IMG/VR virus record: IMGVR_UViG_3300036770_004917
Location: 1 to 64,000 of that record
DNA from: a virus
Strand: one strand, 5' to 3'
Length of the DNA stretch: 64,000 nt
Shown: positions 51,501 through 53,934 of the stretch, piece after piece
Position numbering within the stretch: the stretch's first letter is position 1
How the letters are laid out: every line of letters begins with the position of its first letter
The notes under the pieces: model-generated
Database searches by the model: none
What the model saw: the letters and a program-made list of their open reading frames with translations, nothing else
Told to the model about the DNA's origin: nothing
Translations under genes and position numbers: made by a program

Positions 51501-52549
51501 AGTTCTTCTCCATCATCGAAGGGGCGCGCAAGCCGAGGTTTTTTCCTACCTTCAGGGTCTTTGATAAAAATGGAATCAAAGAATTTATGCCAGCGTCCAT
51601 ACTTCTTGCGTGGCTCTACCTCGTCAAAAATTGACAGAATCGTCTCGCTGTCTGGAATCTCCGTATTGTGGTAATCCCTATTGTCAGGGAGCAAACGGCG
51701 CAAGACCGTATTCGTTGGCATTCTCAGCGAGATTGTTCCATCGTCGTGTACTCGGAGTTCTGACCCCTCGATGATGTCATCAATGGTCATGTCTATATCT
51801 GGGTGCGACCCAAAACCATCAATGAGTTTTTCCCGCCTAAGAATGCCGGAACGTTCACGACGACCCATTGATTGCCAGTCGTCTCGCATGGCTTGGAGAT
51901 TCATTATCAAGTTGGAAACTTGATTTTTAATGCGTTTCTTTTGGTCATCCGTCCAATCGCCGGACTCCATGAGGCGCTTCTCTAATCCATTACGAATATC
52001 CACCCAGAACTGACTGTCGCTAATCGCCTCGTCGCCGTCTGTTCCTTTTTTGGGCCTCTGTGTCGGCTCAAGGATGTCTCCTAGGGGGATTCGTTCTCTG
52101 ATGCTTCGTGTACTTCGTACTACGCGACCGACATTCGGACCCGGGCGCACGGACGTATCAATTGCGCCATCTACTTCGGCGTTGCTTGCAATACCAACGC
52201 TTGAGTCTTTATCAATTCTTGAAACAATGCTCTGCAGTTTTTCCTGGCTAAATGAGATATCGGTATTGCCAGCACGCCGCTTGCGCTCAATCTCTTCAGA
52301 GTCGCCCTGGGTAAGTTTTGCAACAGACTTTGCAATACTGCGTGGAACGATGAATCTAGGAATAATGGGTCTTTCAAGGGGTAATCCCTCAAAAACAATC
52401 CCATCGTTATCGGCGTCTACTCGTCCTGTGACGTCAACGAACGACATCCCAGGCGGCGCAGCACGAAGGCCACCACCAATACGCTGACCGAGTTTTCCGC
52501 CCAGTGCTTTAGATTCGGCGTCTAGCCCTAACTCAGCAAAGCCGGGCAC
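42581..52549 (-). CDS. Giant polyvalent protein D (3322 aa): tag, HDxxGH domain, ART-like domain, two WxYPDG modules, Nudix, KTSC-like; probably expressed as a protease fusion
   Basis: HDLMGH..FDRHSE; LTHTG..LS.Y..EREY; GAW(I/L)YPDG twice; GRYGASG..WSFPGG..EFREEVG; 12 exact STRS; GTG start lacks an SD. Confidence 0.85.
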   Translation of the reverse strand: MPGFAELGLDAESKALGGKLGQRIGGGLRAAPPGMSFVDVTGRVDADNDGIVFEGLPLERPIIPRFIVPRSIAKSVAKLTQGDSEEIERKRRAGNTDISFSQEKLQSIVSRIDKDSSVGIASNAEVDGAIDTSVRPGPNVGRVVRSTRSIRERIPLGDILEPTQRPKKGTDGDEAISDSQFWVDIRNGLEKRLMESGDWTDDQKKRIKNQVSNLIMNLQAMRDDWQSMGRRERSGILRREKLIDGFGSHPDIDMTIDDIIEGSELRVHDDGTISLRMPTNTVLRRLLPDNRDYHNTEIPDSETILSIFDEVEPRKKYGRWHKFFDSIFIKDPEGRKKPRLARPFDDGEELPFHEFFNKKYREHLKEQLPSVNVALSVRTNEIAAMLLKHYIIPELEKVPRNERAKVAKRLIDNDFFIHGYLQLMSDPHAVPEVHGELSNYLVSPLAMLHDLMGHFALGNTFDRHSEWGNILALISLARDKDFWNKLRELPGLESLTDEDREVFIRSNLMEIAARWLGIVASPDKPERARGRFEETIRDYDGPIDELLDKLDPPSTRSSRSSRSVRQTPLTEASDDMLARLAGDSLDGILIRNELLDSVDAPRVTKRNDNGVSIDGLRSTRKRTSLRQEDPEYRRIFGKSALEGYYSQLGKELDSIEKAIAHWEETGDWLGKDFDVAEPRVSGRRSRGSMTNLTKEELSEVQTPEEQREAFNRYRNNLIELREDAVERLRVIEQFERGETPRNVDMDNLRDHPEFVRLAERGRALITGAVESENPGQQYGDFENEDVLFLTHTGVPVLDGGVLDPQFTAGFGEASEIIGGAKNSKRSNEAGRNLLIRAYEQAEKDLEITRSELEEFEKVGVNTEQIERLKKTIAAREQWLADNKQFHDYAKSGREHLSYYPADIRIGIGYARDRNDEGASRVYLAAVPKSQATMYAGPIGFPRSEREYQVFEKVEPIASIEFASSARTGTESDTDALNAATGYFERVANEWNKENSGSTRSARYSLSTRSTTTSAEDEKTRKVQENRERSRERMTKVAKLGDEHSRSMLESNAELRNAVQQIRDAVENLSTEELREIIGPIGTVDGERGYVEYVLKAVNSSMRQNVRPLYGFVEDRTNKALLSLTNALVKPSPEKERIVRQIERAIGDRPKRLGGEERVLANDFITAKDFANSHWHGAWIYPDGRIYPVMSHDAEYEYSDAFDDGLVRLLFGPPGNVNIDAIGLNDKQIDAIANIVQLSDAPAVSVSRKRRDYGGDTIPALFPIGEFDLTSRTPSAKEIKEFLGTEDFVEKPDFIPEWARLSSDRDARTSTGMPSTRSRTMRANDEQSPRRNRVARRRGELSRDEDIAEGLAEIEEEKTASPWEKYKILQSDDGVYYADRISSREVSLLRAGKLKPPAYPFFAPRGGGSNQETGEGYYFSITGQKFNGRYGASGALVRRRRGLSGDYEYLLARRAPWMSSGGGQWSFPGGVHKDKDSSEIPMETAVTEFREEVGGDLEGLLPVYSYRDQRAPDWAYDTHVYEVGRRDLSDVKIGDGENTEIGWFSASEIMDMNKNGKLLRSFGLVAPEIFANSGDHSLTEREPGGIGRLFKRMRGRTTGTDGLASSSTRSTRSYISPREQRALAVMKADMQQRREQITKQMQEKRLANNAALVKLLDDITKSLDNGKLNRATLREIRFLSGRADYPLRSPSMTPEMLRDLQQDIRAIVDMRGKPDEGAANILAAIGDELRMRAKADDSARLGSEKRPLQMKFMTVDEFINSDFFGAWLYPDGTLYPVIGEHGDEHDYLNAYDDGVVRFRMSRGNITEKINSRGEKVLEQIRPYIGFEAGDVRFTEEQIDAIERIYAETGADILAYSISDKDEIDFARRTGVQEIPKKDKTLSIGVLGNSEKSAIGDIIRGVEGETDAPTPRGEGYEYGGTRSVRGQSIATQMGDEIDDTAQGSNIPSTRSKRGKNRKKWNVTGDKKVTGDMKKLTPEQVRQEQEQKRRATKIPGKRKEGPSSREWLNITRSTIAPGNNAKEQYINGLSAMRAGGELRPLGRPLSSQNSDGSMSYISFGSDVKPGDILPDNFMQSLASQGDARYSVASVGRMRDGVNKLVLRDLVSGNAISAVIPDDQQLLNANRPASTRSGRTRIPAVWRDTVEDFRAGSTDAIVGRVRGLLDELNDSRDELKELDAQFDAVNYEWPNAEMENRSAFLDESILAIEREVNEIFAAAQHLVREERQAALTSASYKKAKKQASGYNDAAERFGLTEEDWADVLSLLEYDSALERSLFDTGPRGTSRPVGMNRTSASELAEELNQLASNDQVGSYIDMLEVDSIINGRDIDDEDRSFINKSASDILENAILSVRRKRKLADAKQAVINTTATELDEQAVLAISPSTRSVASPRITSKATVKMGTDLRNSEQLFPGRSSKFANSNVSFVAYDGNRNELIIGRNGGIYRYGGMNDEVIDTFLKSRKTVDASLNQLDKDSSYTVSPDGSRRGLVPGLAQLLERDARRVKLSSTETSLIKNLAGAYSASSRDEVAPVDPIRAHSIAKKLFANQEAAAAINIVDALEDSRSARLLPDGIAPMYRPLPKTPSNTISIILDNNDAGIVRDELAELRKRFANNREITSAIDVYDKLIAGGQSGGLKTAFSMSPAEYEFIRDGITALRSSNMSDGTASAALLDHAASSPKLKFDATEFPQTNGTDVNSLFNSGAPYSLNKERRQKLLDWAQGSNMKVAQSLANEKFKTIATWKSLDAIREFSTPTRSAVGSLAPRKGGDEAGTPFAEMAPSDYADMAPLDKLSWIKENMVQGGGDKGLRQSDAIKQAREVMDALNMVQDNLKRRDNYESVIYGNGSGTAATPDFAKSWESLGMKTRDILDNESRSVFYNDFRNLNHMQAADVVRRLRPEADKRRTGVSEIPDNDLNLIWDDIMASSQKLLDAIDKRRELGLEDEDLDLPPVPVRSSRVQSPVRPTRSGIQLPVDITAPPKATAPSPTRGEDSPVSTPSNPTAARVRRQRIASGIGSIIGEYQSELDSVYSTRYQDNRHSQVWDDVKKLFADADGAGIDFGIGNIDDAIDILDDYLTSDFVVDAMDGKPNGFAPRASVIGKKYVQNSIDRASGTRDYLNKLRNELMTDEFIDKAPGRGAPLVRSMPEMDIVPKTRYVPRIRGRAIDAYFAARKNEVMQSTRSTRSSVKEGRAEIRAERTKFNELLNSLDREISKADDPRHSAALNLLKKTLTRQKSGKLSDRRTNAGALYLTQDEIDEIIEALYVALDRQVERGGEARMALFGEMAELMAKAAMATFINRTAEPVHSRTITKINENGDEVEIALND

Positions 52550-53934: not shown

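What the first reader, a model, noticed from the sequence alone, without database searches (positions are those of the whole stretch)
52499..52563. Probable -1 frameshift fuses the prohead protease to a 3322-aa effector polyprotein
Seen: the protease ends TCA AAA AAA TAA TAG. The heptamer A AAA AAA (52555-52561) fits the X XXY YYZ slippery pattern. The -1 frame reads K-K-I-I-V-P-G directly into the 3322-aa ORF, whose GTG has no SD, unlike neighbouring genes. A possible stem (GCCCG-GCTTT...AAAGC-AC-TGGGC) starts 7 nt downstream. The fusion would be about 3784 aa, with an ESK-ALG site just after the junction. Known: -1 frameshifts set stoichiometry in phage tail chaperones and some capsid proteins. 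Inference: a minority of protease molecules carry the cargo into the prohead and then release it.
Basis: partly seen in the sequence, partly recalled or inferred. Interest (0 to 1): 0.88.

Follow-up and report, generated by a model that had tools for sequence, protein, structure and literature searches.

The report
Frameshift joins phage protease to cargo
In this uncultured phage the head-maturation protease gene ends in a run of seven A's where the reading machinery very probably slips back one base and carries on into a 3322-codon gene, so one locus gives both a free protease and a giant protease-plus-cargo protein.

Summary
On the minus strand the 460-aa S78 prohead protease ORF ends GGT GGT TCA AAA AAA TAA TAG. 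The A run is 52555-52561, and the 3322-aa ORF follows in the -1 frame.

It is not an assembly error. Contigs of three runs show seven A's, and all 14 unique relatives of this clade keep the site.

Comparative evidence for recoding:
- 39 of 61 unique relatives encode the protease and the giant protein as one in-frame ORF, up to 4433 aa.
- The out-of-frame clade arose once (SH-aLRT 96) and keeps the slip site in phase.
- Five of 11 junctions examined have no ATG/GTG/TTG near the junction.
- That start-less stretch still evolves as coding: 20 synonymous against 2 nonsynonymous differing codons in the -1 frame, against 3:21 and 0:24 in the other frames.
- A sister clade keeps the same site in frame, with a -1 stop one codon later.

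Unresolved: ribosomal versus transcriptional slippage, efficiency, cleavage sites and packaging.

This scan noted the same phenomenon before on other DNA (e1-5857674, e1-5645155, e1-5698956). Five literature searches found no published description.

The parts
54043..56094 (-). Portal protein gene (683 aa), immediately upstream of the protease gene
   Evidence: Pfam Phage_portal E 3.6e-45; phrog_2662 portal E 5.6e-59
52552..53934 (-). Prohead (head-maturation) protease ORF, zero-frame product 460 aa. It has an S78 domain at residues 18-171 plus a ~290-aa C-terminal extension of unknown fold
   Evidence: Pfam PF04586 E 9.4e-14; phrog_80 head maturation protease E 5.4e-29. SD AGGAG lies before the ATG. 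His61 and Ser125 are invariant in 14 aligned relatives
52555..52569 (-). Conserved block GGT GGT TCA AAA AAA. The last seven bases (52555-52561) are the slippery heptamer A AAA AAA in X XXY YYZ phase
   Evidence: In 18 unique rows of the out-of-frame and the in-frame A7 clades the codons are GGT 18/18, GGT 16/18 and TCA 17/17. The AAA AAA columns were fixed by the anchor used. Other conserved residues use 2-4 synonymous codons. Lys codon usage in the window is AAA 472: AAG 468
52549..52554 (-). Zero-frame stops TAA TAG directly after the heptamer
   Evidence: In relatives of the same clade the zero-frame stop lies 0, 1 or 4 codons after the A run
52525..52547 (-). Possible local hairpin (GCCCGGCUU / GAGUU-A-GGGC) starting 7 nt after the A run; a weak candidate stimulator
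   Evidence: MFE structure (-10.5 kcal/mol, z -0.3 for the window; L009 -13.3, z -3.2; L010 -11.8, z -2.1; absent in L011). 86.9% of cells are paired across 11 sequences, with no pair changed on both sides
42581..52549 (-). 3322-codon ORF in the -1 frame (giant multi-domain cargo protein). The frame is open from 52591, upstream of the heptamer
   Evidence: The N-terminal part is homologous to the in-frame continuation of the protease in relatives
52220..52516 (-). Conserved ~100-aa module at residues ~12-110 of the giant protein (K.LG.K.G.R.GGGLRAAP.GM.FVD.TG..DAD.DGIVFEG.PLERPIIPRF.VP)
   Evidence: 47 invariant columns in 7 sequences from in-frame and out-of-frame forms. Paralogous copies sit at residues ~210-310 of the 3123-aa ORF and ~208-304 of the 2763-aa ORF
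47891..48217 (-). NUDIX domain inside the giant protein (residues 1445-1553)
   Evidence: Pfam PF00293 E 7e-07, 29.8 bits, cut-off 21.1
4496..5803 (-). Major head protein gene (435 aa), about 46.7 kb downstream of the protease gene. The four giant ORFs lie between the two
   Evidence: phrog_10 major head protein E 2.2e-69; ORF map

Best explanation
This is a programmed -1 ribosomal frameshift. Ribosomes translating the prohead-protease gene reach A AAA AAA (52561-52555) with the two Lys-tRNAs on AAA AAA. A fraction of them slip back one base, read AAA AAA ATA ATA GTG CCC..., miss the TAA TAG stops and continue for 3322 codons.

The locus therefore gives two proteins with the same N-terminus: the 460-aa protease (no slip) and a 3784-aa protease-cargo fusion (slip).

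Shown: the anatomy; the in-frame fusion in relatives; conservation of the slip site; and coding selection on a stretch that has no start codon.

Inferred: the protease part, with its ~290-aa C-terminal extension, takes the cargo into the assembling prohead, and the protease then cuts the cargo free and into modules. Candidate cut sites are the invariant Lys of ESK-ALGG and the STRS linkers. The slip rate would set the ratio of free protease to cargo-bearing protease. The efficiency is unknown.
For: 1. Fusion is the family norm. Of 61 unique protease sequences (108 usable loci of 142 sequences examined), 39 continue in frame without an A run, 5 continue in frame through the same A7, 14 (window included) are out of frame at A7, 2 are split with their own ATG, and 1 is cut by a contig end. 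In-frame ORFs reach 3661 and 4433 aa. In the in-frame forms the residues after the junction are homologous to the N-terminus of the window's giant ORF.

2. The out-of-frame state is one clade (SH-aLRT 96). It spans protease identities from 95% down to 62%, on 17 contigs from different metagenome data sets plus the window. All 14 unique members keep A7 (13) or A8 (1) in X XXY YYZ phase, with the -1 frame open through it. The zero-frame stop lies 0, 1 or 4 codons later.

3. Of 11 junctions examined, 5 have no ATG/GTG/TTG near the junction: L011, L012 and L013 have the first one at +95, L009 at +38 and L023 at +83. Yet among L011/L012/L013 the 33 codons after the A run differ at 20 synonymous against 2 nonsynonymous codons in the -1 frame, against 3:21 and 0:24 in the other frames. 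L009 against L023 gives 7:2, against 1:8 and 0:7.

4. Synonymous sites of GGT GGT TCA AAA AAA do not vary, although Lys usage is 472 AAA: 468 AAG.

5. No SD lies at working distance of the GTG, unlike most neighbouring genes. No terminator-like site lies between the genes.

6. In the window the junction run is the only one of 10 A7+ runs in minus-strand ORFs that is in slippery phase.

7. Contigs of three runs carry 7 A's without an indel.

8. Precedent, from passages of PMC5009743: dnaX exists in both arrangements, with either the long or the short product made by the shift.
Against: - No protein, RNA or reporter data exist; everything is comparative.
- In E. coli, A_AAA_AAA is much less shift-prone than A_AAA_AAG (PMC5009743, passage).
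- No convincing stimulator was found. The local hairpin is no better than shuffles in the window (z -0.3), is absent in L011 and shows no compensatory change. Rfam gave no match.
- Family-wide, A7 runs in slippery phase are not avoided inside long ORFs: 25 of 101 other runs. A bare A7 is therefore tolerated.
- Six of 11 junctions, the window's included, have GTG or TTG 2 nt after the stop, so reinitiation could add to the fusion route or replace it there.
- A related clade has a truly separate ATG-led gene. Paralogous module proteins start with their own SD a few residues before the module. Fusion is therefore not obligatory for this kind of cargo.
- The out-of-frame state arose once, so the 14 sequences are one evolutionary event that has been maintained, not 14 trials.
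Confidence: 0.6

Rival explanations
1. The same fusion is made by transcriptional slippage. RNA polymerase stutters on the A7 (T7 in the template) and adds one A to a share of the mRNAs. Standard translation of those mRNAs then reads straight from the protease into the giant ORF.
For: The site is a pure homopolymer. One extra A gives exactly the giant ORF's frame. A stop-interrupted gene rescued by an A run is documented for tssM1 (abstract of PMC4256274). Thermus dnaX uses slippage on a run of nine (PMC5009743, passage). The weak, non-covarying downstream RNA structure is what one would expect if no ribosomal stimulator is needed.
Against: The documented efficient cases use runs of 9 or 11; here the run is 7 in 13 of 14 unique sequences and 8 in one. 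Selection has not lengthened it. The one A8 adds its extra A on the 5' side, which keeps the X XXY YYZ phase. Nine other A7/A8 runs sit inside ORFs of the window, and slippage there would be as frequent and harmful.
Confidence: 0.2
2. There is no fusion. The two genes became separate in this clade. The giant ORF is translated on its own, by termination-reinitiation at the GTG/TTG 2 nt after the TAA or by weak initiation at near-cognate codons (ATA/ATT/CTG), using GGTGG as a distant SD. The A run is then only a Lys-Lys codon pair inherited from the fused ancestor.
For: GTG or TTG lies at +5 in 6 of 11 junctions examined. A related clade (L140, L141, L143) has a stop, then an ATG 24 nt later with an AAGG(G) motif. 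Paralogous module-bearing ORFs in other contigs start with GGTGGAGG plus ATG/GTG only a few residues before the module. GGTGG ends 9 nt before the ATA/ATT codon that follows the A run. A7 runs in slippery phase occur elsewhere in relatives' ORFs.
Against: Five of 11 junctions have no ATG/GTG/TTG before conserved, selected coding sequence. Initiation at ATA or ATT is rare (recalled, not from a call). The run and its phase never decay to AAG in 14 + 5 unique sequences, despite 50:50 Lys codon usage. The in-frame sister clade keeps the same 15 bases where no initiation is needed. There is no SD at normal spacing before the window's GTG.
Confidence: 0.15
3. It is an artefact or decay: a homopolymer miscall in assembly, or a recent inactivating indel in a fused gene (a pseudogene).
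For: Homopolymers are classic sites of indel errors. This scan found look-alike protease/capsid 'slippery' sites in Shigella that were deletions (e1-319659 and others; not checked here).
Against: Contigs from three runs agree on 7 A's with no indel, at depth 21 in the likely source run. Seventeen other contigs from different data sets share the arrangement. The clade is old (protease identity down to 62%), yet the -1 ORF stays open for 3322 codons here and to the end of every fetched flank in relatives. The sequence right after the run is not a simple 1-nt shift of the in-frame sister clade's sequence.
Confidence: 0.02

Closest known systems
Bacterial dnaX tau/gamma recoding (Atkins et al. 2016, PMC5009743; passages read)
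   Same: A -1 shift on an A-rich X XXY YYZ heptamer gives a short and a long product with a shared N-terminus. Different lineages have either the long or the short product depend on the shift, with the stop directly after the site. Here the window's clade needs the shift for the long form, and the sister clade would get the short form from it (-1 stop one codon after the run).
   Different: The gene and its function differ: a head protease plus a multi-kb cargo, not a polymerase subunit. The heptamer ends in A, not G. No SD or stem-loop stimulators have been demonstrated. Nothing has been measured.
Lambda-type tail assembly chaperone G/GT frameshift (PMC5009743 passage; also cited in PMC7302621)
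   Same: A conserved -1 shift near the 3' end of a phage morphogenesis gene yields a minor C-terminally extended fusion whose ratio to the short form matters for assembly.
   Different: It lies in the head module, not the tail module. The extension is 3322 residues of enzymes instead of a small domain. The upstream partner is a protease.
Polyvalent proteins of phages and conjugative elements (Iyer et al. 2017, PMC5512222; passages read)
   Same: Giant multi-domain proteins are encoded next to head genes, are predicted to be packaged and injected, and are sometimes processed by an embedded peptidase. NUDIX is among the domain types discussed.
   Different: [quoted passage not shown] Here and in 44 of 61 unique relatives it is at the N-terminus. 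Gordonia phage DalanDe shows the C-terminal type. The word frameshift does not occur in that paper's main text. Its FTP supplements were not seen.
Transcriptional frameshifting in Citrobacter rodentium tssM1 (PMC4256274; abstract read)
   Same: A stop-interrupted gene is preceded by an A run. Both length variants and their ratio are needed.
   Different: The run there has 11 A's and the mechanism is proven to be RNA polymerase slippage. Here the run has 7 A's and the mechanism is open.
Head-protein fusions and giant virion genes of actinophages (Jacobs-Sera et al. 2020, PMC7302621; passages read) and the PRFect note on MuF/VIP2 gene pairs (PMC10885494; section 19 read)
   Same: In-frame fusions of the capsid maturation protease to MuF, scaffold or capsid are described. 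So is a >4,400-aa gene 'likely processed, and virion associated'. PRFect reasons that genes fused in some genomes may be joined by a frameshift in others.
   Different: None describes a frameshift between a prohead protease and a cargo protein. PRFect's supplementary lists were not seen.

Membership tests
Programmed -1 ribosomal frameshift site (X XXY YYZ type) | Slippery heptamer in the correct phase of the upstream ORF | tested here: met
   A AAA AAA lies at 52561-52555, and the first A is codon position 3
Programmed -1 ribosomal frameshift site (X XXY YYZ type) | The -1 frame is open across the site and continues into a long ORF; the zero frame stops soon after | tested here: met
   The -1 frame is open from 37 nt upstream of the stop and runs for 9971 nt. 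The zero-frame TAA directly follows
Programmed -1 ribosomal frameshift site (X XXY YYZ type) | Site and frame arrangement conserved in homologues beyond what coding requires | tested here: met
   14 of 14 unique clade members keep it. Synonymous sites are invariant. The start-less downstream stretch is under coding selection in the -1 frame
Programmed -1 ribosomal frameshift site (X XXY YYZ type) | Stimulatory RNA structure 5-9 nt downstream, or an SD-like element upstream | tested here: inconclusive
Hairpins start 6-7 nt downstream in 5 of 6 sequences folded, but z-scores range from -0.3 to -4.0 and L011 has none. There is no compensatory change.
Programmed -1 ribosomal frameshift site (X XXY YYZ type) | Frameshift product detected | not testable with these tools
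   There are no proteomic data, and no RNA run is listed for this DNA
Transcriptional slippage site | Long homopolymer (documented efficient cases: 9 or 11 A/T) | tested here: not met
   The run has 7 A's, and 8 in one relative. Shorter runs are not excluded
Peptidase S78 / HK97-type prohead protease | Profile match above the curated cut-off, and a gene next to the portal gene | tested here: met
   PF04586 scores 52.3 bits against a cut-off of 21; the portal gene is directly upstream; phrog_80
Peptidase S78 / HK97-type prohead protease | Catalytic His and Ser present | tested here: inconclusive
   His61 and Ser125 are invariant in 14 relatives.
Polyvalent proteins (Iyer et al. 2017) | Several unrelated effector domains in one polypeptide | tested here: inconclusive
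   Only NUDIX passed in Pfam, and PHROGs gave nothing. ART-like and other domains are claimed in first-stage notes, which I did not check
Polyvalent proteins (Iyer et al. 2017) | Encoded within the head/packaging gene context | tested here: met
   It lies between the portal-protease genes and the major head protein gene

The most novel reading that the evidence does not exclude
The A7 block is a two-way recoding switch shared by sister clades of a widespread family of uncultured phages. In one clade the slip makes the long protease-cargo fusion. In the other the same slip runs into a stop one codon later and makes the free protease. Each phage thus tunes how many protease molecules drag a 3000-4000-residue polyvalent cargo into the prohead. 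The protease part would be the capsid-targeting vehicle for cargo that fills a ~46-kb gene block between the protease and capsid genes.
Probability: 0.4. Interest if true: 0.85.

Novelty: new variant of a known kind. Interest (0 to 1): 0.75.

Why it matters
Programmed frameshifts in tailed phages are textbook for tail chaperones and are known for a few capsid proteins. A conserved one that ties the head-maturation protease to a multi-enzyme cargo would be a new use of recoding. It would set the dose of injected proteins at the moment the head is built, much as gag-pol does in retroviruses (an analogy from my own knowledge).

It also exposes a large, unnamed family in which the prohead protease is the N-terminal leader of polyproteins of up to 4433 residues. 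This is the opposite of the only published generalisation that I found (PMC5512222).

In practice, automatic annotation calls two unrelated genes here and would miss the 3784-aa product. The tryptic junction peptide gives a direct mass-spectrometry test.

Tried and rejected
Rejected as a conserved structure.
- Local hairpin: kept only as a weak candidate.
- Rfam: no match at E <= 1 in 52350-52700.
- Promoter-like sites: 5 found against 3.0 +/- 1.7 in shuffles, so no evidence of an internal promoter.
- 'The frameshift goes with a bigger cargo': rejected. In-frame relatives reach 3661 and 4433 aa.
- 'Slippery-phase A7 runs are avoided in ORFs': true in the window (0 of 9 others) but not family-wide (25 of 101). 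Dropped as a general argument.
- A second recoding site between the 522-aa ORF and the 3372-aa ORF: rejected. There is an ordinary GGAG plus ATG.
- STRS as a universal cut motif: it is enriched in the window's four giants (17, 7, 9 and 12 against about 1.1-1.3 expected; 0 in the 10 other proteins) and in close relatives. It is not enriched in L010-L013 (0-1 in 2000 aa). The in-frame A7 clade is rich in GMR/MRS/RSR instead. Left as a lead.
- Expression: no RNA holder was listed for this DNA. The freshwater run X4 laid no contig.
- Host:
  - No WhiB gene in the 57%-complete record.
  - One tRNA-Arg in the window.
  - Genome contigs gave 5 MAG contigs of unrelated phyla.
  - The nearest cultured proteases are in actinophages, at 40-42% identity over the domain only.
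  - The host is left open.
- The metagenome scan with the giant's N-terminus gave only 2 loci.
- PDB sequence searches: none for the protease profile; only designed TIM barrels at E about 1e-3 for the module, which I regard as noise.
- Literature: searches found no paper that describes a frameshift between a prohead protease and a cargo protein.

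
Full report
**What is there**

The window comes from an 86,043-bp IMG/VR virus record, estimated 57% complete. The runs that hold it are labelled subsurface metagenome.

On the minus strand the head module reads as follows:
- portal (54043-56094);
- an S78/HK97-type prohead protease ORF of 460 aa (52552-53934);
- a 3322-aa ORF (42581-52549);
- a 522-aa ORF;
- ORFs of 3372, 1084, 113, 211, 681, 3123, 113 and 2763 aa;
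- only then the major head protein (4496-5803).

The large terminase gene is divergent, at 56383-57687.

The protease ORF ends GGT GGT TCA AAA AAA TAA TAG. The seven A's are 52561-52555, in X XXY YYZ phase. The giant ORF is in the -1 frame and is open from 37 nt before the stop. A -1 shift gives ...GGSKK-IIVPGFAELGLDAESKALGG... and a product of 3784 aa.

**Not an error**

Logan contigs of three runs of one study cover the run with no difference and no indel. X1, at depth 21, is probably the source; X2 and X3 are other samples. These are contigs, so rare variants would not show.

Independent assemblies are better evidence. Seventeen contigs from different metagenome data sets show the same arrangement: L001-L007, L009-L015, L023, L084 and L085.

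**What relatives show**

I fetched 80 viral loci with the protease, 59 with the conserved N-terminus of the giant protein and 2 from metagenomes. With the window that makes 142 sequences. Of these, 108 carry a protease match covering query residues <=12 to >=419. The other 34 were dropped; they are paralogous module loci without a protease, or truncated matches. The 108 collapse to 61 unique protease sequences.

The junction states of the 61 are:

| State | Unique sequences |
|---|---|
| In frame, no A run | 39 |
| In frame through the same GGT GGT TCA AAA AAA | 5 |
| Out of frame at A7/A8, giant ORF in -1 | 14 |
| Split, with own ATG | 2 |
| Cut by a contig end | 1 |

In the in-frame forms the sequence after the junction is homologous to the window's giant N-terminus. 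For example, L016 reads ...GGGGSKKGDGAPNTKAAPKTRIKALSGKIGPKIGGGLRAAPAGMAFVDITG.... Whole in-frame ORFs of 3661 aa (A7 clade) and 4433 aa were measured in longer records. A database search of the 806-2300-aa length class found 363 further long proteins with this protease. All of the 120 best that were listed come from metagenome or genome-assembly sources, and where named they are called 'HK97 family phage prohead protease'.

On a quick maximum-likelihood tree (LG+G4, SH-aLRT only, midpoint root) the out-of-frame sequences form one clade (96). It sits in an unresolved three-way split with the in-frame A7 clade (100) and a clade holding the split forms plus four in-frame sequences (99). Everything deeper is in frame. 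Fusion is therefore ancestral, and the out-of-frame state arose once and was then maintained.

**Why I think the shift is used**

*First*, within the clade the protease diverges to 62% identity. Yet all 14 unique junctions keep A7 (13) or A8 (1, with the extra A on the 5' side, preserving phase). The zero-frame stop moves: 0, 1 or 4 codons after the run.

*Second*, of 11 junctions examined for start codons:
- 6 have GTG or TTG 2 nt after the stop (the window, L001, L002, L005, L006, L010);
- 5 do not. L009 has its first ATG/GTG/TTG at +38, L023 at +83, and L011, L012 and L013 at +95. That last start is the conserved Met inside ...AAPPGMSFVD...

*Third*, the stretch without a start codon is evolving as protein-coding in the -1 frame:

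| Comparison | -1 frame (syn:nonsyn) | Zero frame | +1 frame |
|---|---|---|---|
| L011/L012/L013, 33 codons | 20:2 | 3:21 | 0:24 |
| L009 against L023 | 7:2 | 1:8 | 0:7 |

The three pairwise comparisons within L011/L012/L013 are not independent of each other. Translation must reach those codons from upstream.

*Fourth*, synonymous positions of the five codons GGT GGT TCA AAA AAA are frozen across 18 unique rows of both A7 clades: GGT 18/18, GGT 16/18, TCA 17/17. The two AAA columns were fixed by the anchor I used. Other conserved residues in the last 45 codons use 2-4 synonymous codons, and the phage uses AAA and AAG equally (472:468).

*Fifth*, the window's GTG has no SD at working distance, unlike most neighbouring genes. 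There is no terminator-like site between the two ORFs.

**The sister clade**

In the five unique in-frame A7 sequences, a -1 slip on the same heptamer meets a stop after one codon. The stop is made by different letters in different members: AGG TGA in L016 and L018, AGA TAG in L118. A G/C-only 6-bp stem starts 6 nt after the run (L016 -15.4 kcal/mol, z -2.4; L118 -16.0, z -4.0, 0 of 200 shuffles as good).

This is the arrangement described for dnaX, where either the long or the short product can be the shifted one (PMC5009743, passages). It suggests that both clades make a short and a long form. With two lineages this is a hint, not a proof.

**What weakens the case**

- Nothing has been measured.
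- In E. coli, A_AAA_AAA is reported as much less shift-prone than A_AAA_AAG.
- I found no convincing stimulator. In the window the local hairpin (52547-52525) folds at -10.5 kcal/mol with z -0.3. L009 and L010 do better, and L011 has none.
- Across 11 sequences, 86.9% of cells pair, but no pair changes on both sides.
Rfam has no match.
- A7 runs in slippery phase are not avoided in long ORFs across the family (25 of 101 other runs), although the window has none besides the junction (0 of 9).
- Independent expression is possible for this kind of protein. L140, L141 and L143 have a stop and then an ATG 24 nt later. Paralogous module-bearing ORFs in other contigs (L100, L104, L106) begin with GGTGGAGG plus ATG/GTG a few residues before the module.
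- For the window itself, reinitiation at the GTG could therefore coexist with the shift.

**Ribosome or polymerase**

Adding one A to the mRNA gives the same protein. Documented efficient polymerase slippage uses runs of 9 or 11. Here the run stays at 7 and keeps its codon phase, which matters only to ribosomes. I therefore favour ribosomal slippage (0.6) over transcriptional slippage (0.2), but no computation available to me can separate them.

**How it probably works (inference)**

The protease carries a ~290-aa C-terminal extension that is conserved in the family. It has no PDB relative by sequence.

The first ~100 residues of the giant protein form a strongly conserved module, with 47 invariant columns in 7 sequences. 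The module recurs at residues ~210-310 of the 3123-aa ORF and ~208-304 of the 2763-aa ORF.

All four giants, and none of the 10 other proteins tested, are rich in (S)TRS: 17, 7, 9 and 12 occurrences against about 1.1-1.3 expected. This fits linker or cleavage sites between modules. The motif is not universal in the clade.

I read the locus as a head-assembly device. The protease co-assembles into the prohead. The fraction made as a fusion brings the cargo with it, and the protease then frees it.

The class of giant 'polyvalent' proteins packaged by phages is described (PMC5512222). [quoted passage not shown] In this family it is N-terminal.

**Known or new**

Five full-text searches found no description of a frameshift between a prohead protease and a cargo protein, and neither did the passages I read:
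- PMC5506516: passages;
- PMC7302621: passages;
- PMC5512222: passages;
- PMC4256274: abstract and outline;
- PMC10885494: passages and section 19;
- PMC5009743: passages.

Supplements were closed.

Within this scan the same phenomenon was already noted on other genomes (e1-5857674, e1-5645155, e1-5698956). Those are AI notes and not independent evidence. What I tested here agrees with the first of them.

I class the finding as a new variant of a known kind (programmed recoding in phage morphogenesis genes), with interest 0.75.

Noticed in passing
window 6451-52549 (-): About 46 kb between the protease gene and the major head protein gene (4496-5803) is filled by four giant ORFs (3322, 3372, 3123 and 2763 aa) and a few smaller ones. 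The giants alone take about 37.7 kb of the 64-kb window.
   Followed up: partly
window 52220-52516 (-), 23538-23840 (-), 13879-14127 (-): A ~100-aa module (…GGLRAAP.G..F.DVTG..DAD.DGIVFE..PLERPIIPRF…) is shared by three of the four giants. The copies are 56% and 59% identical to the one at the junction. In the other two giants it is preceded by ~205 unrelated residues. It also occurs twice per contig in several relatives. It has no Pfam or PDB relative by sequence.
   Followed up: partly
window: all four giant ORFs: (S)TRS is enriched 6- to 14-fold in each giant protein and absent from the 10 other proteins tested. The in-frame A7 clade is instead rich in GMR/MRS/RSR (10-13 each). These may be lineage-specific linker or cleavage motifs of the form x-R-S.
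   Followed up: partly
L016, L018, L118 (in-frame A7 clade): The same GGT GGT TCA AAA AAA lies in frame. The -1 frame stops one codon later, with TGA or TAG depending on the member. A 6-bp G/C stem starts 6 nt downstream.
   Followed up: partly
L140, L141, L143: A related clade (protease 55-56% identical) has the protease and the giant gene truly split: a TAA stop, then an ATG 24 nt later with an AAGG(G) motif, and no A run.
   Followed up: yes
G003:C1:51337-52683 and G004:C1:42624-43958: In-frame protease-led ORFs of 3661 and 4433 aa in records of 125 kb and 106 kb.
   Followed up: no
P0022, P0034, P0036 and similar: Proteins of 1600-2100 aa are 75-84% identical to the protease domain alone (35-37% of the query) and carry PF19846 alongside PF04586. 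L147 and L148, on two contigs of one MAG, have a 72-73% identical domain in a stand-alone 441-447-aa ORF.
   Followed up: no
window 40857-42425 (-): The 522-aa ORF after the giant gene is not the capsid protein. It has no Pfam hit and only a weak phrog_80 C-terminal hit (E 0.0085). It has a good SD. A first-stage note calls it an acidic scaffold-like protein.
   Followed up: no
window, both strands: A7 runs are about half as frequent as in dinucleotide-preserving shuffles: 12 against 26.4 +/- 6.3, and 99 of 100 shuffles have at least 12.
   Followed up: partly
window 1033-1107 (+): A single tRNA-Arg (anticodon TCT).
   Followed up: no
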